A stretch of 64,000 bases of DNA, taken from contig JBNKTW010000071.1 in the NCBI GenBank assembly GCA_050298295.1, forward strand, positions 7,092-71,091, given 5' to 3'. Below the pieces are notes generated by a model, which saw nothing but the letters and a program-made list of their open reading frames with translations, was not told the DNA's origin and did no database searches. Made by a program: the position numbers and the translations under genes. Shown one piece after another: positions 39,477 to 61,964 of the stretch. Origin of the DNA: Rhodomicrobiaceae bacterium. GTDB lineage: Bacteria > Pseudomonadota > Alphaproteobacteria > Rhizobiales > Rhodomicrobiaceae. The number at the start of each line of letters is the position of its first letter. Position 1 is the first letter of the stretch.

Positions 39477-39668
39477 GCATTTTCCGCCTCCGCCGTTAAC
39501 GTTTTCCCGGCAGTTTGGGCCGGCGGGTGGTGTCTTCCGGATTTGAAACAATATAGCAGATGCGCCTTACGGAAGCATTAAGCTGTAGACGGAACACTAA
39601 GTTGCTGCGTAGGAACGGATAATATTGCCGCCGCTTTCGCACTGCGCGTGAGCTTAATACATTCTTCA

Positions 39669-39752
39669 GGTTAATCCGCAAGTTGCGGATATATTTAAAG
39701 GGATTCTGCGAACGTGAAATTCGCGCGAAAACACGAAAAAATCACGCGAAAT
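39669..39752 (+). repeat. 84-bp intergenic element, copy B
   Basis: GGTTAAT-N15-ATATTTAAAGGGATTC...TCGCGCGAAAACACGAAAAAATCACGCGAAAT. Confidence 0.8.
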
Positions 39753-39998
39753 ACGCATCCCGAAGCGGTCCCGCCACGCCGTTAACCTTACCGGCATTAA
39801 GCATACCGCGCCGCGTGGCCAGCTTTACCGGATCTCAAGAATTCCTGAGGAACGGAAAAGCGCCGAAAAACAGCCGCAACGATTAAGTGCTGCGGCGGAA
39901 ATGCGAGCTTGCCTGGCCGCGAAAAATGCCGCCCGCCTCCGGCGGGTCTGTTTCGCTTGGCGTCCGTGACAACGCGCAGATTATAAGACGTAAGGATG

Positions 39999-41204
39999 CT
40001 AAGATTCAGGATTTAATGTTCGGGCCAGACGGAAACCCGCATTGCCGCCGCGGCCGACTGGGGCGCCCCAGATGCGGCCCGCCGCGCGGAGGAACCGTGG
40101 ATCGCTGACCCAGGAACCGCCGCGAAGAACACGGAGACTACTGTCTCCCGTTGTCCAGGCGTCACCAGTGCTTTTCAAGCTTTCGGGCTTATCCCAGTAA
40201 CTCCCATGCCAGACATCCTCGCACCATTCCCAGACATTTCCGTGCATGTCGTGCAAGCCGAAGCCGTTGGGCTGCTTCCCGCCCACGGGATGGGTTTCAC
40301 CGCCTGCGTTGGACGAATACCAGGCATGGCGATCCAGATCGCTTTCGTTACCGCCGAAGGAGTAAGCTGCCTCGCTTCCCGCACGGCAAGCGTATTCCCA
40401 TTCCGCCTCACTCAAGAGACGGTAAGGCTGGCCAGTCTTGTCCGAAAGCCACTTTATGTAAGCCTGCGCGTCGTTCCATGAGACGTTGATGACAGGCCGC
40501 CGCCCGTGCCCCCAGCCTCTGTCGCCTGGCTTATGAGAGACGCCCCCCGCCGCAACCGCGGCGTCCCATTCGTCGAACGTCACCGGATACTTTCCCACCG
40601 CGAAGGCTCGTTGGATCGTCACCTTGTGGCGCGGGCGCTCCCTGTCCTCTCCTTCGCCGTCCTTGGAACCCATCATGAAGCTGCCCGCCGGGATCACAAC
40701 CATCTCCGGCCCTGCGTCAAAATCGCGGAAGCTCTTGCCCGGCTTCGGCTTCTGGCGCTCAACTTCCGGCGCGGGCGTTTCCGCTTTGGCCACGGCTTCG
40801 GCGTACACCACTTCGGCATGATTGCTGGGAGCGATCAGCCTCCGCGCCAGCGCGGCGAAGATCTTCGCGCGGTCGCTCACAAGCGTGATGTTCCCCGACG
40901 TGAACGGCATCGGCACCTTGCGCGGATCGAGCGTTTCTTCGCGCACCTGCAAAAGCTTGCCGTGCGCGTCCCCCTCGCTCGCCTCGGACCAGACCCAGCG
41001 AGACGTCACCGAATGCTCCGCCCAGATCACGATCACGGCCTTCGCCGCCGCGATCTGGGTGCGGATCGTCTCGGGGAAGAACCCGTCGTCCGGCAGAAGG
41101 TTCGTATCCCACCAGGTGGTGTAGCCTTCGGCTTCAAGGTCACGCGCAAGCTCCTTGGTGAGCCGGTCGTGCTTCTTCGAGTATGAGATAAAAATATCGG
41201 CCAT
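39999..41204 (-). CDS. TIR domain + formylglycine-generating enzyme (SUMF1/CLec) domain protein; probable DGR-type target
   Basis: DIFISYS..WVWSEA (TIR with Glu); GPEMVVIPAGSFMMG, RLLSEAEWEYACRAG, DMHGNVWEW, RGGSW..GFRLAR. Confidence 0.9.
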   Translation of the reverse strand: MADIFISYSKKHDRLTKELARDLEAEGYTTWWDTNLLPDDGFFPETIRTQIAAAKAVIVIWAEHSVTSRWVWSEASEGDAHGKLLQVREETLDPRKVPMPFTSGNITLVSDRAKIFAALARRLIAPSNHAEVVYAEAVAKAETPAPEVERQKPKPGKSFRDFDAGPEMVVIPAGSFMMGSKDGEGEDRERPRHKVTIQRAFAVGKYPVTFDEWDAAVAAGGVSHKPGDRGWGHGRRPVINVSWNDAQAYIKWLSDKTGQPYRLLSEAEWEYACRAGSEAAYSFGGNESDLDRHAWYSSNAGGETHPVGGKQPNGFGLHDMHGNVWEWCEDVWHGSYWDKPESLKSTGDAWTTGDSSLRVLRGGSWVSDPRFLRAAGRIWGAPVGRGGNAGFRLARTLNPES

Positions 41205-41302: not shown

Positions 41303-41404
41303 CCCCCGTCACCCTCTCCCTGTCCCTTACCCACGCAAGCCCGCCAAGGCGAGCTTGCCACTCAGAAGCGTCCATATCCGCAAGCGGATATGGATGGGAG
41401 AGGG
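41303..41404. repeat. REP-like element of the CCCTCTCCC..GGGAGAGGG family with two internal hairpins
   Basis: CCCTCTCCCTGTCCCTTACCC-acg-CAAGCCCGCCAAGGCGAGCTTG-N13-TCCATATCCGCAAGCGGATATGGA-TGGGAGAGGG; matches the right half of the DUF952 insert. Confidence 0.8.
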
Positions 41405-55733: not shown

Positions 55734-55965
55734 GCGGGTGCGGAACGCATTCCGATGCCCGATTAACCACGCCCGCGTTAACTATAACCGCCAGCACTGG
55801 AAATTAACCCTCCGGCAATACTTCACAGGACGGTGCAAGTTCCTGCCGCGCGCAAGGAATTATTCACAGGCGCCTGCATAGAATCCGCACATCTGTCTCC
55901 TGCGTTCGAGATAGAACCTTATTCCGGGAGGAGATGTTCACTCCACCCGTTTGTGCGGAGGCGGC

Positions 55966-58900
55966 ATGACGCTTCGACTGATCGTGCAGGAAGAAAACGG
56001 AATCACGCAAGTGATGGAGCGCCTTCCCGGTGTCACGGAAACCGTGCCGTTCGGCGCGCTGGAGTCCTTCGCTTCGCCGCTCACCGCCGCTGATTTCGAA
56101 GATCTGCGCCATTACCTTCAAGACTATGCGAACCCTCCTCTGGCGGAGTGCGCTGGCCGGGGCGAACGTGCGGACCGGGAGCGCCTGACTGCTTACGGAG
56201 AGGCGCTGTATAAAGCCGTATTCGCGGGACGCCCGAGACGGTGCGATGCCTATCTGCGGGCCAAGCTTGCGATCGAGAACCGGAGGGGGGCCGAAGTTGC
56301 GATCAGTTCCAGAGACCCGCGCTTTCTGGTCCTTCCCTGGGAATTGATGAAGGCGCCAGAAGCGCGCGATCCCCTGTCGGTGTGCGTGGACACGTTCGAC
56401 CGCATTCTGCCCGGGGACGAGCCTGCCCTTGAGTTTGCTAGCATAGGACAGGGCTTCAGGGTTTTGATGGTTACCCCACGGCCGGCAGACATAGGCGGTG
56501 AGATATTTCCGGCCGTCGCGCGGCCTCTCCTCCGGCACCTGGAAGCAGCCAAGAACCCGGTGCGGATCGATATTTTACGGCCTCCAAGCTTTGAGGCGTT
56601 CAAGGCGCGGCTCAAGGAGGCGAAAGAAGCCGGCACACCCTATCATGCCGTCCACTTCGAAGGATACGGCCAAACCGGGGAAGGCGGGGACGCCCCAACC
56701 GTCCTTTGCGAAAGACAGGGAGAGGCTCCGCAAAACTATGCAATCTTCGAGCGCGATAACGGCGAGCCGGAGCCGGTTCGCGTCAGGGCGGTTGCCGCGG
56801 CCCTGGCTAGAGGCGATGTGCCGCTGATGATCCTCAGCGCTTGCCGCCCCCGTGAAGCCCAGACGCCGTGTGATGCCACATGCCCTGGCACCTTCATGGC
56901 GATGCAGCTTCTTGAGAGAGGCACACCCTCGGTGGTGGCGATGGGGCATCCTCTTTACTCCGTGGCCGCCGCCGCCTTCATGGCGGCGTTTTACGCGGAG
57001 CTGCTTGCGGGCAGGAGTGTCTCCGAAGCCGTCAATACCGGACGCAAGGCGCTGCGGGAGGAGACCAACCGCCTGCGCCCGAGCCTGAAAGGCAGCACGC
57101 CGCTGCAAGATTGGTTCGTGCCGGTCCATTTCGCCCGCAACTTTCTCCGCCTGCGTCAAGGCGAGGCGGCGCCTGGGCCCGCCTTCCCGGCTGAAGAGAC
57201 GGTAGCCGCCGTGCTGGACGCGGCGGCGTCGGCTGAAAACCGGCCGGCCGGCGACCTTACCGCGGCCGGGGACTTGTTCTTTGGCCGCGATGCGGAATTC
57301 TTCATCCTTGAGCGCGCCATCCGCACCCGCCACATTGCCGTGATCCATGGTTTGGGCGGCACGGGCAAAACCGAGCTGGCCAAGGGCTTCGCCCGCTGGC
57401 TGCAAGCCTCGGGTGGCCTCGGCGATCAGCGGTTCGTGTTCTTCGACAGCTTCGAGCCGGGCCATCAGGCCTTTGGGCTCGATCTGATCGCGAACCAGAT
57501 CATGGCCCGCTTCGGCGAGGCAGAGGCTTGCCGGGCCGCGGAAAACACGAAAGAGCGGGCGGAGCTTGCCTTACAGAAGCTTCGCCAGCATCGCTGCCTG
57601 TTGATCTGGGACAATTTCTCGACCGCGTTCTCCTTGCCCGACCCGAGCGGGAAAATGCAGCCCCTGGACGAAGCTCAGAGAGCCGGGGTGCTATGGTTCC
57701 TCGGCGAGCTTCACGAAAGCCAATCGGCGCTGCTCATCACTTCGCGCACGCGGGAAGAGTGGCTCGGCGGGCCGGAAATGGCGGCGCGCTGCGAGGTTAG
57801 GGGCTTAAACGAGCGCGACGTGCTGCTATACGCGGACCGGCTGCTTGCGCCTTATCCGCAGGCGAGCGCCCGGCGCGTGGCCGATCCCGCCGGCTTTAAG
57901 GCGCTGCTGGATTATTTGGGCGGCCATCCTTTAAGCCTGAAACTCGTACTCCCGCAGCTTTCCCGGTCGTGCGCGGCGGTGCTGCTGGAGGCGCTGAAGA
58001 CTCAGGAGACGCCGCTGGCCGGATTTGGCGCGGAGGAAGGGCACCTCGCATCGCTTGGTGCGAGCCTCTATTATTCCTTCCGCCATTTGACCGGCAAGGA
58101 TCAGACGCGCCTCGTTATTCTCTCTCTCTTCGAGAAAGTGGCGCCGTCGCACATTCTCGGCGCCATGAAGGATGCGCCGGAACAATTCCGGGATCTCGGC
58201 CAGCCGGAATGGGAGGCGCTTCTCGGCCGGCTTACGGATATCGGTCTTCTGACAAACCTTGGCGGCGGCCTCTACCAGCTTCATCCGGCCCTGCCGTCCT
58301 ATCTCGGTGCTCTTTGGAAATCGCAGGCTCAGGCTCCCGCTGACGCCGGCAGGGAACGCGAGGAGGCGCTCAGAAGCCTTATCGCCGCCGCCGCCAGGAT
58401 CGCCGGTCATCTGCACAGGCAGCTCCAGACGGAGGAAGCCCGTCCGGCGCTCGATCAAATCGGCGCCTTGCGGGCAAACTTCTACGCCTTCCTCGCCGCC
58501 GCCGTGGAGCGCCGCCTGTTCGCGGAGGCGCAGACGCTGATTCTGGCGCTAGATCATTATTGGCACAGCGCGGCGCTCGCGCAGGAAGCCCAAACCTGGA
58601 GCGAATACATCATCAAGGCCATCGAGCCCAGGGCGTACCAGGCCCCGGAAACCGGAACCCCGGCGCATGAACTCTGGCTGTCCGTCATGGTCAAGGAGGG
58701 CGACCGCGCGTTTCAGGCTGGCGACCTTGGCAAGGCCGAAGCCATATACCGCCGTATAGCCAGCAGTATCGAGCGGCATGGCGGCGGGAGGCCGGACCGG
58801 AATCTGGCTGACGCATATTACAAGCTCGGCATAGCCGGACAGGAACACGGCCTTCTCGAAGAGGCCGGGGCGTCGGTTGAGAAAGCCCTGGCGATTTTCG

Positions 58901-59769
58901 AGGCGCTGGACTCTCCTATGGATATCGCGCTGTGCTATTACCGGCTTGGGGCGGTGGCGCAGCTTCGCGGGAATCCCGGAGAGGCCGAGGGATGGTACAA
59001 AAAGTCCCTCACCATCCATAATACCCTGGTCGACCAGCCGGAAATGGCCGAAGCCTACCAGAAGCTCGCCCGGGAAGCGCAGGAGTGCGGCCGCCATCAG
59101 GAAGCCGAGGGATGGTATAAGAAATCGCTCGCCATCGAGGAAGCGCTGGGCTGCATGGCCGATAGCTATCATCAGCTTGGCGTGGTGGCGCAGGATCGCG
59201 GCCATCCCGGCGAGGCCGAGGGATGGTACAATAAGTCGCTCTCCGTCTTCGAGATGCTGGGCAACAAGGCGGGCGTGGTCAAGAATTACCACCACCTTGG
59301 CGCTTTGGCGCAAGCGCGCGGCCGTTCCGGCGAGGCCGAAGACTGGTATAGGAAATCCGCCGCCGCCGAGGAGGCGCTGGGCAACCGGCCCGGCGTGGCG
59401 TGGAGCTGCCGGCTGCTTGGCGCCGTGTTGCATGGGCGCGGCCGTTTCGAAGAGGCCCAGGAGTGCTACAGGAAATCCCTCGCCATCGAAGAGGTGCGGG
59501 GCAGCCAGGCGGGCATGGCCGCGGACTTCTATCAGCTCGCCCTGCTGGCGCGGGACCGGGGCTCCTCCGGCGAGGCCCAGGTCTGGGCGATGAAAGCGTT
59601 CGCCATGTTCGATATGCTGGGCGACGAGCTGGACAAGGGCAAGGCGCTCGCGCTCATCGCCGGGCTTAAGACCGCCGCCGATGACGAAGACATGCCGCAA
59701 GGGACGCCGCCGGCCGGACTGCAACAGCCCCCGGCTCAGCCCGCGGAAAGCGGCAAGCCCGCGCCGTGA
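55966..59769 (+). CDS. CHAT (caspase-like) + STAND/NB-ARC-like NTPase + TPR protein
   Basis: LPWELM, RPP, HFEGYG, LSAC, FYAEL, DWFVPV (CHAT); HGLGGTGKTELA (Walker A); LLIWDN (Walker B); GGHPLSL; C-terminal TPR repeats. Confidence 0.88.
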   Translation: MTLRLIVQEENGITQVMERLPGVTETVPFGALESFASPLTAADFEDLRHYLQDYANPPLAECAGRGERADRERLTAYGEALYKAVFAGRPRRCDAYLRAKLAIENRRGAEVAISSRDPRFLVLPWELMKAPEARDPLSVCVDTFDRILPGDEPALEFASIGQGFRVLMVTPRPADIGGEIFPAVARPLLRHLEAAKNPVRIDILRPPSFEAFKARLKEAKEAGTPYHAVHFEGYGQTGEGGDAPTVLCERQGEAPQNYAIFERDNGEPEPVRVRAVAAALARGDVPLMILSACRPREAQTPCDATCPGTFMAMQLLERGTPSVVAMGHPLYSVAAAAFMAAFYAELLAGRSVSEAVNTGRKALREETNRLRPSLKGSTPLQDWFVPVHFARNFLRLRQGEAAPGPAFPAEETVAAVLDAAASAENRPAGDLTAAGDLFFGRDAEFFILERAIRTRHIAVIHGLGGTGKTELAKGFARWLQASGGLGDQRFVFFDSFEPGHQAFGLDLIANQIMARFGEAEACRAAENTKERAELALQKLRQHRCLLIWDNFSTAFSLPDPSGKMQPLDEAQRAGVLWFLGELHESQSALLITSRTREEWLGGPEMAARCEVRGLNERDVLLYADRLLAPYPQASARRVADPAGFKALLDYLGGHPLSLKLVLPQLSRSCAAVLLEALKTQETPLAGFGAEEGHLASLGASLYYSFRHLTGKDQTRLVILSLFEKVAPSHILGAMKDAPEQFRDLGQPEWEALLGRLTDIGLLTNLGGGLYQLHPALPSYLGALWKSQAQAPADAGREREEALRSLIAAAARIAGHLHRQLQTEEARPALDQIGALRANFYAFLAAAVERRLFAEAQTLILALDHYWHSAALAQEAQTWSEYIIKAIEPRAYQAPETGTPAHELWLSVMVKEGDRAFQAGDLGKAEAIYRRIASSIERHGGGRPDRNLADAYYKLGIAGQEHGLLEEAGASVEKALAIFEALDSPMDIALCYYRLGAVAQLRGNPGEAEGWYKKSLTIHNTLVDQPEMAEAYQKLAREAQECGRHQEAEGWYKKSLAIEEALGCMADSYHQLGVVAQDRGHPGEAEGWYNKSLSVFEMLGNKAGVVKNYHHLGALAQARGRSGEAEDWYRKSAAAEEALGNRPGVAWSCRLLGAVLHGRGRFEEAQECYRKSLAIEEVRGSQAGMAADFYQLALLARDRGSSGEAQVWAMKAFAMFDMLGDELDKGKALALIAGLKTAADDEDMPQGTPPAGLQQPPAQPAESGKPAP

Positions 59770-59876: not shown

Positions 59877-61055
59877 TTACGCGTTACAAAGAGCCATTGG
59901 TCTTCCTGCTCCGCGGTTCGTTGTGGCGGCTGTATTGCGCATTCGGCAGAAGCCATCTTTCGGCCTGGAGGCTCTTGCTGATGCTGGTTCCATTTTGACC
60001 AGCTTCAGTGTGCACAGCTCGTGAGACCTGACCGGGGCAAATTTCTGCTTATACAAATTTAGCCCTTCGCTTTCAGAACCACCGATGCACATCTCCTTGT
60101 ACCCCGAATCCAGAAGCCTGCGCGCCGCCTGATAATGCAGATATTCGCAGCAGCCCGGTTCGCTGGTCGCTTGGAGCGCCGCCAAACAGGGAACAGGATC
60201 GTTGTACCTGCGATTATTTTCCCAAAGCCAAAATGCGAGATACTCATTTCCCCTTTTTAGAAAAATACCGTCTACGGGTAGCTCGCGGTTTACGGTAAGG
60301 TTGGCAATAAATTGGTACGGTGCCAAAAGCTCTTCGTAGTCAAACGAGAAATTGGTATCCTCTTTATGGTTTGTCAGCTTATTTTCTACCCAGCGTTCGC
60401 TTATAGACTGGATCGCGTTTACCCTTTCCGTTTCCATCAAGTCACCGAAAACAACCGTATCTATGCCTCGCGCCCTAAATTTGTTCAGCTTATTCCTATA
60501 GGCAGAAAGACGAGGCCCAACAGGATAAGCGGAGCTTTGTAACGAAACATCATAGGATGGAAACATCCAGTCCAACTTGCTCTCGCGATGGACTTCAACT
60601 ACAAAGCCCTTCATTGAGAACTTGCCGCCTGCTATGTCATCCTTACTAATAAAACGTTTGGGGACTCTGGCTATATGAACATTTTCGCATTCATAGATCC
60701 ACTTGCACAACGGAGTACTGTCTCCTCCCTGTAAATTGCTCGCAATGGCATTAATATGCAAATCAAATGAATCTTGATCAGATACGAAAGGCATAAATAG
60801 CAATCGGGTTAAGTTATCATTAGGATGGACACAACCAACAAACTTAATGCCATTCGATTGGAAATACCATAACCCATTTCTACCTGTAAATGCATAGTAC
60901 AGAGGTGACTTCACATAAACATCCTTGGCCTCCGACCTGCTTAGTGACTGTTTTAGGAAAGTGCTACCGTATGCACCAATATTGACTACGTCAATTTCAT
61001 CGCCGCGCCCGAACCTCCTACTGTCTACGTCCCGAAATTCGTTTGCCATCCTCAT
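59877..61055 (-). CDS. Soluble DUF2156 / aminoacyl-phosphatidylglycerol-synthase C-terminal-like (GNAT fold) protein, low GC
   Basis: YxV..G..LSAYRNKLNKF and GGSESEGLNLYKQKFAP patterns; coupled to the XRE gene stop. Confidence 0.55.
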   Translation of the reverse strand: MRMANEFRDVDSRRFGRGDEIDVVNIGAYGSTFLKQSLSRSEAKDVYVKSPLYYAFTGRNGLWYFQSNGIKFVGCVHPNDNLTRLLFMPFVSDQDSFDLHINAIASNLQGGDSTPLCKWIYECENVHIARVPKRFISKDDIAGGKFSMKGFVVEVHRESKLDWMFPSYDVSLQSSAYPVGPRLSAYRNKLNKFRARGIDTVVFGDLMETERVNAIQSISERWVENKLTNHKEDTNFSFDYEELLAPYQFIANLTVNRELPVDGIFLKRGNEYLAFWLWENNRRYNDPVPCLAALQATSEPGCCEYLHYQAARRLLDSGYKEMCIGGSESEGLNLYKQKFAPVRSHELCTLKLVKMEPASARASRPKDGFCRMRNTAATTNRGAGRPMALCNA

Positions 61056-61720
61056 TTTTCTTCTCCGTTTTGGATGGCCCAGATGAATTCGAACATATGC
61101 CGCGATGCTTCAGCGATTGCCTTGCTGTGTACGACAGTGACCGTCACCTGAGGTTCGAATTGCACAACGGCAACGCTTTCGCCGAATATGACGATAGGAG
61201 GAAAATGTCTATTACTTATATCTGCGCCTTTTAACAACCGATACCATGGCATCGGAGCCACGAAAGTCGTTGTATCCGAAAAGTATAATATTTTCTCCTT
61301 TAATCCAGCCAGACGAAGGCGCTCAATATGTTGAGTTAAATAATCTCCAAGAGATTCATCGGCATCGTCTTCCCTTAGGCCATAGATCAATATGTCATCG
61401 ATGCCTGTTTTTTCCTGATACGCAAGGGCGTTGCTATAAATCTCATTAAGCAAACGCCTATTTGCGCCTGGCATGTTGTCATATGATGTCGTAGGCTCCC
61501 TAAAACGTACACCCTCTTGCGGAAGGAATTCCACCTGCCGCTCCTCCAGAACAGTACGCAGCCGCAGCGTCAGGTCGCGCGATGGGTTTCCGCCTCCTTT
61601 TTCAAACGCGATCACAGTACTTCGAGAAAGTCTCGCCGCAGTCGCTAGATCGGTTTGCGACCAGCCAATCAACCCGCGCGCAGCACGAATTTGACGAGGA
61701 GTAACAAGGAAGACATTCAT
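61052..61720 (-). CDS. XRE-family HTH regulator with C-terminal sensor-like domain, low GC
   Basis: TPRQIRAARGLIGWSQTDLATAARLSRSTVIAFEKG followed by a ~140-aa extra domain. Confidence 0.85.
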   Translation of the reverse strand: MNVFLVTPRQIRAARGLIGWSQTDLATAARLSRSTVIAFEKGGGNPSRDLTLRLRTVLEERQVEFLPQEGVRFREPTTSYDNMPGANRRLLNEIYSNALAYQEKTGIDDILIYGLREDDADESLGDYLTQHIERLRLAGLKEKILYFSDTTTFVAPMPWYRLLKGADISNRHFPPIVIFGESVAVVQFEPQVTVTVVHSKAIAEASRHMFEFIWAIQNGEEK

Positions 61721-61964
61721 TGCGAGATCGCAGGTTGCTTTGGTGGTACACACCCTCCCCTCTGAAGGGGTGGGCCTAGTCAAACAAAATGTATCTTAAG
61801 ATCTCACAAAATGTCTAACTTGTCCACCGACCACAAAAAAATTGGCGTATCCAACCAATAACGCGAAAAGATACTGATCGAAGCTAACTCGGTCATCGCA
61901 TTGGCTATCCAGGCAAGGCAATTACATCTTGCCTGGGTTTCTTCATAAAGCTCCTTGGGATCAC

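What the first reader, a model, noticed from the sequence alone, without database searches (positions are those of the whole stretch)
39932..40124. TIR-CLec gene ends in a DGR-like variable region, with no reverse transcriptase in the window
Seen: the 3' codons TGG GTC AGC GAT CCA CGG TTC CTC CGC GCG GCG GGC CGC ATC TGG GGC GCC CCA GTC GGC CGC GGC GGC AAT lie between RGGSW and GFR. Nearly all putative variable codons are NNC/NAT, as expected from A-to-N mutagenesis of an AAC/AAT-rich template. Downstream are short pyrimidine-rich repeats (ATCCTG/ATCTTA/ATCCTTA/GTCTTA) and a GC hairpin CCCGCC-GGA-GGCGGG (39932-39946). Established: FGE-type CLec domains are common DGR targets, and GC hairpins with GRA/GRNA loops follow many variable regions. 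Inference: a remotely diversified ligand sensor coupled to a TIR domain that retains its catalytic Glu.
Basis: partly seen in the sequence, partly recalled or inferred. Interest (0 to 1): 0.7.

Follow-up and report, generated by a model that had tools for sequence, protein, structure and literature searches.

The report
TIR–lectin gene with DGR-type variable cassette
A 401-residue bacterial protein joins a TIR "alarm" domain to a lectin-fold sensor whose last ~130 bases look like a retroelement-rewritten hypervariable cassette; the retroelement is not nearby, and this kind of gene is already known in other bacteria.

Summary

**The gene.** Window 39999-41204 (-) encodes TIR_2 plus an FGE-sulfatase (C-type-lectin fold) domain.

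**The codons.** The 24 codons between RGGSW and GFR align without gaps to the template repeats (TRs) of eight real DGRs that I found among 153 homologous loci.
- At all 11 template-Asn positions the window has NNC or NAT codons.
- TGG sits where the templates have AGG.
- Taken alone, this codon signal is modest.

**The strongest evidence.** It comes from the source metagenome. A minor second version of the same 3' gene half is 14-19% diverged in both flanks, mostly at third codon positions.
- Inside 40008-40139 it differs at 26 sites.
- Only 2 of those are third positions.
- Of the 23 differing sites in the 24 codons, 20 fall on adenines of the independent templates (p = 3e-9).

**Downstream features.** GC hairpins with GNA or GNNA loops are enriched after homologs that carry this codon footprint.

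**What is missing.** There is no TR or reverse transcriptase in the window or in about 15 kb of extensions. The rest of the genome could not be searched.

**Verdict.** Most likely a remote DGR target, less likely a relic. TIR-lectin DGR targets and remote targets are already published, so this is a new member of a known kind.

The parts
39999..41204 (-). TIR-FGE/CLec gene, 401 aa, ATG start, TAG stop
   Evidence: ORF list. Pfam TIR_2 2.7e-14 and FGE-sulfatase 3.1e-56. Identical in MAG GCA_050299395.1 contig JBNKVW010000002.1.
40932..41195 (-). TIR_2 domain (residues 4-91). Glu74 (codon 40983-40985) lies in the SRWVWSE motif.
   Evidence: Pfam. phmmer alignments to Cat1 and RUN1 TIRs put E74 on their W-x-x-E Glu, at weak E-values of 0.07-0.4. 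Weak PADLOC hits to SAVED-TIR, Ago-TIR and ThsB.
40020..40709 (-). FGE-sulfatase (C-type-lectin fold) domain, residues 166-395, without the FGE catalytic cysteines
   Evidence: Pfam. Closest solved chains are PvdO 5hha (1e-47) and the DGR variable protein TvpA 2y3c (2e-27). There is no Cys after RGGSW (translation).
40008..40139 (-). VR-like cassette of about 132 nt, from S-L-R-V-L-R-G-G-S-W to G-F-R-L-A-R-T-L-N-P
   Evidence: Other contigs of the source metagenome match the window at 80-85% over exactly this block. Their differences are confined to first and second positions of about 16 codons. It starts and ends where the VR/TR homology of real DGRs starts and ends.
40038..40109 (-). The 24 codons between RGGSW and GFR. 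Variable codons are 1-3, 5, 6, 11, 13-16 and 18-23. Scaffold codons are P4, L7-R8-A9-A10, R12, P17 and A24.
   Evidence: Gap-free alignment to 8 real TRs. 20 of 23 sites differing from the minor version lie on adenines of at least 4 of 8 independent TRs, Fisher p = 3e-9.
39978..40013 (-). AT- and pyrimidine-rich tail and repeats (AAT CCT GAA TCT TAG CATCCTTAC GTCTTAT AATCT) spanning the stop codon
   Evidence: Read directly. Similar CTTAC / CCTTTAC / CTTAG runs follow the VR but not the TR in 7 of 8 real DGR loci. My simple motif count gives 3 in the window and 0 in most homologs.
39932..39946 (-). GC hairpin CCCGCC-GGA-GGCGGG, followed by CGGCATTTTT (to 39922)
   Evidence: Terminator-like site. 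Present in the centroid fold. GC hairpins occur after 24 of 48 footprint homologs and 5 of 49 non-footprint homologs. GNA or GNNA loops occur after 10 of 48 and 0 of 49.
39873..39896 (-). Second terminator-like hairpin GCCGCAGC-ACTTAATC-GTTGCGGC followed by TGTTTTTCGG

Best explanation
The gene encodes a cytoplasmic two-domain protein. An N-terminal TIR domain is the putative NAD+-consuming or signal-making effector. A C-terminal FGE-type C-type-lectin fold is the ligand-binding sensor.

The last ~132 nt of the gene (40008-40139) are a variable region of the kind written by a diversity-generating retroelement (DGR). In a DGR, a reverse transcriptase copies a template repeat into cDNA, misreads adenines, and the cDNA replaces the cassette. 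About 16 surface codons are then randomised at their first two positions, while scaffold codons and third positions are reset to the template.

The template and RT are not within about 80 kb, so this would be a remote (trans) target. The AT-rich tail, the pyrimidine repeats and the GC hairpin just downstream are the likely target-side recognition features. The hairpin may also serve as the terminator.

Shown:
- the domain architecture;
- the codon-level fit to real templates;
- the site-restricted variation between related cassettes in the source metagenome;
- the absence of a local TR and RT.

Inferred:
- that a cognate DGR exists elsewhere in the genome;
- that rewriting is recent or ongoing;
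- that ligand binding activates the TIR domain as a defence or conflict sensor.
For: Architecture.

Real DGRs among homologs:
- Eight of 153 homologous loci carry true VR/TR pairs. 9 of 10 to 24 of 28 mismatches fall on template adenines, and none falls on a VR adenine.
- This also validates the detection method.
- Their TRs read RGGSW-NNN-x-x-N-x-RSA-N-R-N-R(AGG)-N-D-P-x-N-R-NNN-L/I-GFR.
- The window has NNC or NAT at all 11 Asn positions and TGG at the AGG position.

Second version in the source metagenome X1 (547-nt contig, depth 8.2, beside the main path at 20-28):
- It covers 39936-40482.
- Downstream it has 10 differences in 40 nt.
- Upstream it has 23 in 160 nt to about 65 in 343 nt. 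Of 18 identified upstream differences, 11 are third positions.
- Inside the cassette it has 26 differences, only 2 at third positions, both A<->G.
- Fisher p = 2e-4. P(2 or fewer silent differences) = 2e-4 to 2e-6.

Other cassettes: two more cassettes in X1 share the scaffold codons and the NNC, NGG and NAT third positions.

Hairpin association.

Literature: remote targets and TIR-CLec targets are documented (PMC7517822; bioRxiv 10.1101/2023.09.22.558884; PMC7159879).
Against: - No TR and no RT in 64 kb, nor in 10 kb to the left and 5.3 kb to the right.
- No TR-like contig was laid on the cassette in X1. This test is nearly blind: the expected TR would be about 82% identical and would share no 31-mer with the VR.
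- The dominant cassette is one unbranched contig piece, identical in the MAG and in the Logan assembly.
- The minor version has the same cassette in two samples. So there is no sign of ongoing diversification at the resolution of assembled contigs.
- The sense-strand adenine excess at differing sites is not significant (p = 0.13).
- The within-gene codon signal alone is modest.
- I reconstructed the minor cassettes by splitting depth sums in read laying tables. They were not read as sequences.
Confidence: 0.55

Rival explanations
1. Relic or orphan VR. The cassette was written by a DGR in an ancestor or donor, the retroelement has since been lost from this lineage, and the sequence is now frozen. 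The gene works as a fixed-specificity TIR-lectin sensor.
For: - No TR or RT in about 80 kb.
- The dominant cassette is unbranched and identical across assemblies.
- The minor cassette is identical in two samples.
- About 44 of 124 alignable homologs have an 11 of 11 footprint with no TR in the fetched locus, several with full 10-kb flanks.
Against: Two versions whose flanks differ by 14-19%, mostly at silent sites, are identical at all but two silent sites of the cassette, both A<->G. This implies that at least one was rewritten from a shared template after the flanks diverged. In cyanobacteria most orphan-looking targets do have a TR elsewhere in the genome (PMC7517822).
Confidence: 0.25
2. 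Ordinary PvdO/FGE-like domain with no retroelement history. On this view RGGSW...GFR is simply the family's conserved C-terminus, the NNC codons reflect GC-rich codon usage and Gly/Asp/Asn-rich loops, and the hairpin is a rho-independent terminator.
For: - The motif frame is the Pfam FGE-sulfatase consensus and is present in all homologs.
- 12.6 of 24 NNC or NAT codons are expected anyway, against 17 seen.
- The hairpin plus T-run scores as terminator-like, and a second one follows.
- The closest solved relative is PvdO, not a DGR protein.
Against: - It does not explain the block-limited pattern of differences between related cassettes, or its coincidence with adenines of independent TRs.
- Clearly non-DGR subfamilies (NYYPQLLRSAYRYATAPGVRMENA, LYHPRYLRSALRNGFS...) have ATG, GAG, CTG and GTG codons at these positions and lack the hairpins.
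Confidence: 0.12
3. Gene conversion between paralogous cassettes, together with diversifying selection on binding-site residues and without reverse transcription.
For: - Many contigs in the metagenome share the exact 30-mers at both ends of the cassette, with depth about 187 and 430 against about 30.
- One cassette (132-nt contig, depth 30.9) has three third-position differences and a wholly different codon 24, which a single template does not explain.
Against: Selection acting on amino acids would not hold third positions at C, T or G while the first two positions are saturated. It would also not place the variable sites on the adenines of unrelated organisms' TRs. No paralog exists in the window to act as donor.
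Confidence: 0.08

Closest known systems
Remote variable proteins of cyanobacterial DGRs with an N-terminal signalling domain and a C-terminal CLec domain (Vallota-Eastman et al. 2020, PMC7517822)
   Same: - The VR lies at the 3' end of a CLec/FGE-fold domain.
- An N-terminal domain, TIR-like in some, is grafted onto the CLec domain.
- The gene lies far from the RT. In that study 76 of 121 diversified genes were remote.
- The protein is predicted cytosolic.
   Different: - The host appears to be an alphaproteobacterium-like MAG rather than a multicellular cyanobacterium. This is inferred from nearest relatives.
- Here the cognate TR and RT are not identified at all.
- The neighbourhood is housekeeping genes (kpsF, galU, trxB, lrp), not a conflict island.
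DGR-diversified antigen-sensor candidates of Thiohalocapsa PB-PSB1 and relatives (Dore et al., bioRxiv 10.1101/2023.09.22.558884). FGS-domain conflict systems (Kaur et al. 2020, PMC7159879).
   Same: An FGE-type CLec sensor carries the VR and is combined with effector domains such as TIR and CHAT. The proposed logic is the same: a hypervariable sensor triggers an effector.
   Different: Most of those targets contain a STAND NTPase or belong to MoxR-vWA ternary systems next to the DGR. This protein has only TIR, a 75-residue linker and CLec, with no NTPase and no partner genes in view.
Treponema denticola TvpA (PDB 2y3c) and the Bordetella phage BPP-1 Mtd paradigm
   Same: The FGE-type CLec fold tolerates variation in its C-terminal ~40 residues. 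The sequence match to TvpA is E = 2.4e-27 over the C-terminal half. A GC hairpin downstream of the VR is a known target-recognition feature in BPP-1 (my own knowledge of Guo et al. 2011, not checked here).
   Different: TvpA is a secreted lipoprotein and Mtd is a phage tail fibre tip. Neither carries a TIR domain. Their TR and RT are adjacent or known.
PvdO (PDB 5hha) and non-catalytic FGE-sulfatase domain proteins
   Same: Best overall sequence match (E = 1e-47, full domain). It also lacks the FGE catalytic cysteines.
   Different: PvdO is a periplasmic pyoverdine-maturation protein with no TIR domain and no hypervariable cassette.

Membership tests
DGR target gene (variable protein) | Variable region at the 3' end of a C-type-lectin/FGE-fold (or Ig-like) domain | tested here: met
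   The FGE-sulfatase domain reaches residue 395 of 401. The cassette 40008-40139 aligns without gaps with the VRs of 8 real DGR targets.
DGR target gene (variable protein) | Variation confined to sites that are adenines in the template, mostly codon positions 1 and 2 | tested here: met
   The window was compared with a minor version from the same metagenome. In the whole cassette, 24 of 26 differences are at positions 1 or 2. In the 24 codons, 20 of 23 differences fall on adenines of independent TRs (p = 3e-9). The flanks differ mostly at position 3. The cognate TR itself is unknown, so adenine identity is inferred from other organisms' TRs.
DGR target gene (variable protein) | Cognate template repeat (about 100-150 nt, differing from the VR only at adenines) near the gene | tested here: not met
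   None in the 64-kb window (blastn word size 7; TR regex). None in 10 kb to the left or 5.3 kb to the right. The same method found 8 TRs in control loci.
DGR target gene (variable protein) | Cognate template repeat anywhere in the same genome | not testable with these tools
   Only about 80 kb of MAG GCA_050299395.1 could be fetched. The MAG is not in the species-representative collection (best hit 59%). The laying of contigs in X1 cannot see a TR that is 82% identical or less and shares no 31-mer.
DGR system | DGR-clade reverse transcriptase (with Avd or another accessory gene) | tested here: not met
   tblastn with three real DGR RTs from homolog loci gives no hit in the window (best E = 0.06, short) or in the extensions. 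No long ORF has a plausible YxDD RT context. The rest of the genome is not testable.
DGR target gene (variable protein) | Target-side cis elements: IMH at the VR 3' end and a GC hairpin or cruciform downstream | tested here: inconclusive
   A hairpin with a GGA loop lies 61 nt after the cassette. Such hairpins are enriched after footprint homologs. IMH can only be defined against a TR. The hairpin also fits a terminator.
TIR-domain NADase effectors | TIR fold with the conserved catalytic glutamate | tested here: met
   Pfam TIR_2 at 2.7e-14. E74 aligns with the WxxE Glu of Cat1 and RUN1 (weak E-values). Enzyme activity was not tested.
Formylglycine-generating enzyme (catalytic FGE/SUMF1) | Pair of catalytic cysteines in the C-terminal segment | tested here: not met
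   There is no cysteine between RGGSW and the stop codon (translation). The best structural relatives are the non-catalytic PvdO and TvpA. It shares the fold but is not an FGE enzyme.
Rho-independent terminator | GC-rich stem-loop followed by a T-run at the end of a gene | tested here: met
   Two terminator-like sites at 39946-39932 and 39896-39873. This is a consensus match only. The T-run of the first starts 5 nt after the stem.

The most novel reading that the evidence does not exclude
This is a minimal 'programmable' immune receptor made only of TIR plus a DGR-writable lectin surface, with no NTPase switch. Its cassette is serviced in trans by a retroelement that is not part of this chromosome region, possibly on a mobile element shared between co-existing strains. 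That would explain why two versions with 14-19% diverged flanks carry cassettes reset to the same template. It would also explain why about a third of homologs across phyla show the footprint and a GNA-loop hairpin with no TR within 10 kb.
Probability: 0.12. Interest if true: 0.75.

Novelty: new member of a known kind. Interest (0 to 1): 0.45.

Why it matters
DGR-diversified sensors fused to death or alarm effectors are proposed as a prokaryotic counterpart of antigen receptors, but none has a known ligand or a demonstrated trigger mechanism.

A 401-residue TIR-lectin protein with no NTPase and no partner genes would be about the simplest member to test. One can ask whether the lectin surface gates TIR NADase activity, and what it binds.

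The comparative by-products may help annotate remote DGR targets when the retroelement is missing from a fragmentary assembly:
- a codon footprint that flags about 40% of alignable FGE-domain homologs;
- its link to downstream GNA-loop hairpins and pyrimidine repeats.

For specialists the case is expected rather than surprising.

Tried and rejected
- **Codon bias plus terminator.** My first working view was that the finding was only this. The within-gene statistics alone would allow it. I dropped it after the metagenome cassettes were decomposed.
- **TR search.** blastn at word size 7 with the VR and with an inferred template, and a regex for AAY-rich TR motifs, found nothing in the window or extensions.
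- **RT search.** A YxDD motif scan and tblastn with real DGR RTs found nothing. One 'RT' candidate from L052 was an antisense frame of the FGE gene and was discarded.
- **Close orthologs.** The genome contigs and metagenome-contig scans gave at most 59% identity, so no ortholog-level VR comparison was possible from them.
- **Exact-protein look-up** first said 'not on record'. The neighbours led to the MAG contig, which encodes the identical gene.
- **Viral contig pattern scans** for the inferred template and for the cassette tail: 0 hits in three scans.
- **Splitting the cassette into two short read-laying queries** lost the difference tables, because differences near aligned ends are not listed.
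- **Other negative results.** Rfam gave no family in the window. No repeats of note lie around the gene. No RNA runs were found. The whole downstream region is not more stable than shuffles, z = +1.2.
- **Sense-strand adenine excess** at differing sites: not significant, p = 0.13.
Full report
**What is there.** The finding lies at the 3' end of a minus-strand gene, window 39999-41204, 401 codons.
- Pfam assigns TIR_2 to residues 4-91 (2.7e-14) and FGE-sulfatase, a C-type-lectin fold, to residues 166-395 (3.1e-56).
- The neighbours are housekeeping genes: kpsF-like SIS/CBS, galU, trxB, a LysR regulator and an Lrp/AsnC regulator.
- The window is part of NCBI MAG GCA_050299395.1, contig JBNKVW010000002.1. 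The gene is identical there.
- The source run is SRR36185848, coded X1.

**Local search for the retroelement.**
- The 64 kb contain no repeat of the 3' region (blastn word size 7), no paralog of the gene and no AAY-rich TR motif.
- They contain no ORF with an RT-like YxDD context.
- Three genuine DGR reverse transcriptases taken from homolog loci give no tblastn hit.
- I fetched 10 kb beyond the left edge and 5.3 kb beyond the right edge through flanking proteins. These hold neither a TR nor an RT.
- So 'no reverse transcriptase in the window' is confirmed, and the nearest possible DGR is more than 24 kb away on one side and more than 29 kb on the other.

**Controls from homologs.**
- Scans of the genome and metagenome collections returned 160 loci. 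The best match was 59% identity, so there were no orthologs.
- In 153 loci with a complete C-terminus, the same VR-against-locus blast found eight true VR/TR pairs: L052, L059, L068, L069, L070, L119, L140 and L142.
- In these, 9 of 10 to 24 of 28 mismatches fall on template adenines, and none falls on a VR adenine. The method therefore works, and the family does contain real DGR targets.
- Their TRs share one frame: RGGSW-NNN-x-x-N-x-RSA-N-R-N-R(AGG)-N-D-P-x-N-R-NNN-L/I-GFR.

**The codon footprint.**
- The window's 24 codons align to that frame without gaps.
- At the 11 positions that are Asn codons in most TRs, the window has GTC AGC GAT TTC GGC ATC GGC GGC GGC GGC AAT. That is 11 of 11 NNY.
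- Where the TRs have AGG, the window has TGG.
- Taken alone this is modest evidence. 17 of 24 codons are NNC or NAT, against 47% background (p = 0.015) and 12.6 expected from the amino acids and local codon usage. GGC is the preferred glycine codon.
- Across 124 homologs of equal length, about 50 show 11 of 11. These include 6 of the 8 proven targets; the other two show 10 of 11.
- Conserved orthologous subfamilies carry ATG, GAG, CTG or GTG at these positions. Examples are NYYPQLLRSAYRYATAPGVRMENA, the Janthinobacterium/Massilia LYHPRYLRSALRNGFS type, and RNESELVRAAVR.
- The window belongs to the footprint class, most of whose members also lack a TR within the fetched flanks.

**Variation in the source metagenome: the key result.**
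- Only Logan contigs, not reads, are available for X1.
- The main path over the gene is split into pieces with no differences: 39936-40037, 40013-40136 and 40112-40482, at depth 20-28.
- At 80% likeness three further contigs cover the cassette: 547 nt at depth 8.2, 132 nt at depth 30.9 and 693 nt at depth 10.2.
- Their depths add up uniquely in the difference table, so I could assign each difference to a contig. This reconstruction is my inference.

Codons 11-24 read as follows:

| Cassette | Codons 11-24 |
|---|---|
| Window | GGC CGC ATC TGG GGC GCC CCA GTC GGC CGC GGC GGC AAT GCG |
| r1 (547 nt) | ATC CGC TTC GGG GAC ACC CCA GGC AAC AGC TAC GGC GAT GCG |
| r3 (693 nt) | TAC CGC TAC AGG AAC ACC CCA GTC TTC CGC AGC AGC TAT GCG |
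| r2 (132 nt) | TTC CGC AAC AGG GGT ACC CCA GTC GAC TGG TAC GAC AGT ATC |

- First and second positions are saturated with change. The third positions (C, C, G, C, C, A, C, C, C, C, C, T) and the scaffold codons are fixed in the window, r1 and r3.
- r2 deviates at three third positions and at codon 24.

**The minor version r1.**
- The r1 cassette recurs in another sample of the same study, X7. Fewer competing contigs there let codons 1-10 be read as AGC T(A/G)C TCT CCG CAG GGC CTC CGC GCG GCG. The tail codon is AGG instead of CGA.
- r1 is not just a cassette. It aligns from 39936 to 40482 and ends at the same points as the main path.
- Its depth plus that of the main path roughly equals the flanking depth (about 30-36). 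It is probably a minor allele of the same locus, though this is not proven.
- Downstream of the cassette it has 10 differences in 40 nt.
- Upstream it has 23 in 160 nt to about 65 in 343 nt. Of 18 identified upstream differences, 11 are at third codon positions.
- Inside 40008-40139 it has 26 differences, of which 2 are at third positions, and both are A<->G.
- The contrast gives Fisher p = 2e-4. The chance of two or fewer silent differences in 44 codons at the flank rate is 2e-4 to 2e-6.
- Of the 23 differing sites in the 24 codons, 20 fall on positions that are adenine in at least 4 of the 8 independent TRs (p = 3e-9).
- This is the pattern expected if both versions were reset from one template after their flanks had diverged. 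Ordinary divergence with selection on amino acids does not produce it.
- The direct test for sense-strand adenines at differing sites was not significant (p = 0.13).

**Limits of that evidence.**
- No TR-like contig was laid on the cassette. The expected TR would be about 82% identical to this heavily mutated VR and would share no 31-mer with it, so the test is close to blind.
- The dominant cassette is a single unbranched piece, and the minor cassette is the same in two samples.
- Nothing therefore shows ongoing diversification. Logan contigs drop rare variants by construction.

**Downstream features.**
- The hairpin at 39946-39932 and a second one at 39896-39873 both score as terminator-like. 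The region as a whole is not unusually stable.
- In 7 of 8 real DGR loci the VR, but not the TR, is followed by CTTAC / CCTTTAC / CTTAG-type pyrimidine repeats. In several this is followed by a short GC hairpin with a GNA or GNNA loop and a T-run. The spacing is +62 and +68 nt in L070 and L068, against +61 nt here.
- Among homologs, a perfect GC-rich hairpin of at least 5 bp lies within 130 nt downstream in 24 of 48 footprint genes and 5 of 49 non-footprint genes (p = 2e-5).
- GNA or GNNA loops occur in 10 of 48 and 0 of 49 respectively (p = 5e-4).

**The protein.**
- Glu74 in SRWVWSE aligns with the catalytic glutamate motif of Cat1 and RUN1 TIR domains, at weak E-values.
- PADLOC gives only weak TIR-level matches (SAVED-TIR, Ago-TIR, ThsB) and no known system for the whole protein.
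- The lectin domain is closest to PvdO (5hha, 1e-47) and to the DGR variable protein TvpA (2y3c, 2e-27). It lacks the FGE cysteines, so it shares the fold but is not an enzyme of that family.
- There is no NTPase domain.

**Comparison with the literature.**
- TIR-like domains grafted onto CLec variable proteins, and remote targets, are described for cyanobacteria. There, 76 of 121 diversified genes were remote (PMC7517822).
- TIR- and CHAT-bearing DGR targets, and the idea of hypermutated antigen sensors, are described for Thiohalocapsa and related clades (10.1101/2023.09.22.558884).
- FGS-domain conflict systems with a TR 'elsewhere in the genome' are described in PMC7159879.
- This locus is therefore a new member of a known kind. 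It is unusual mainly for its minimal two-domain build, its housekeeping neighbourhood and its apparent alphaproteobacterial host. The host is inferred from nearest relatives.

**Verdict.**
- Remote DGR target: 0.55. Relic VR: 0.25. Ordinary domain plus terminator: 0.12. Gene conversion: 0.08.
- Interest: 0.45.

Noticed in passing
window 55951-59769 (+), with 59877-61055 (-) and 61052-61783 (-): A 1272-residue CHAT + NACHT + TPR protein (precomputed Pfam hits; PADLOC TPR hit). It lies next to a 392-residue protein with no family hit and an HTH_3 protein with weak RmrA/CapH-like hits. This is a conflict-system-like cluster about 15 kb from the TIR-lectin gene. It has TPRs rather than a lectin sensor.
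   Followed up: partly
window 39631-39784 and 41325-41401: In the source metagenome these intergenic stretches on either side of the gene reach contig depths of 190-590, against about 33 for the genome. This suggests short repeated elements. The upstream stretch contains the palindrome CATATCCGC-TT-GCGGATATG.
   Followed up: no
window 39900-39913 and 41346-41359: A 14-nt direct repeat (AATGCGAGCTTGCC / AAGGCGAGCTTGCC, 13 of 14) brackets the gene and its first downstream hairpin; the second hairpin (39873-39896) lies outside it. It may be chance.
   Followed up: no
window 40016 joined to 40110: Contigs in X1 (depth 16.8) and X2 (depth 23.1) join RGGSW directly to LNPES*, skipping exactly 93 nt (31 codons) of the variable part. 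This is either a cassette-deleted relative in a more abundant organism or an alignment artefact of short flank matches.
   Followed up: no
L069, L119 and L140, about 100-120 nt downstream of their VRs: A shared element GGGCG-TGCGT(T/A/C)AGC-CGCCC, a stem with a conserved 9-nt loop, follows the VR in three real DGR loci. It is absent from the window.
   Followed up: no
L014, L045, L063, L091 and L094, downstream of footprint-type FGE genes: Hairpins with a recurring stem CAGGGGGC and a 3-nt loop (GAA in L014 and L091, GGA in L063, GCA in L045, TGC in L094) occur in five otherwise unrelated loci that have the VR footprint but no TR within the fetched flanks.
   Followed up: no
L044 10971-12027: The 3' end of the FGE gene is followed by four further copies of an ~86-nt unit spaced about 190 nt apart, 84-85% identical, and not adenine-restricted.
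   Followed up: no
L020 18623-19408: A DGR-type RT lies 8 kb from an FGE gene of the conserved, non-footprint NYYPKLLRSAYRYATAPEVRLNNA type. Proximity to an RT alone therefore does not mark a target.
   Followed up: no
window 39780, 39781 and 39793: The Logan contig of the source run differs from the window at three adjacent sites in the intergenic region. The MAG contig differs at 5 sites in 20.5 kb. This is minor strain or consensus variation.
   Followed up: no
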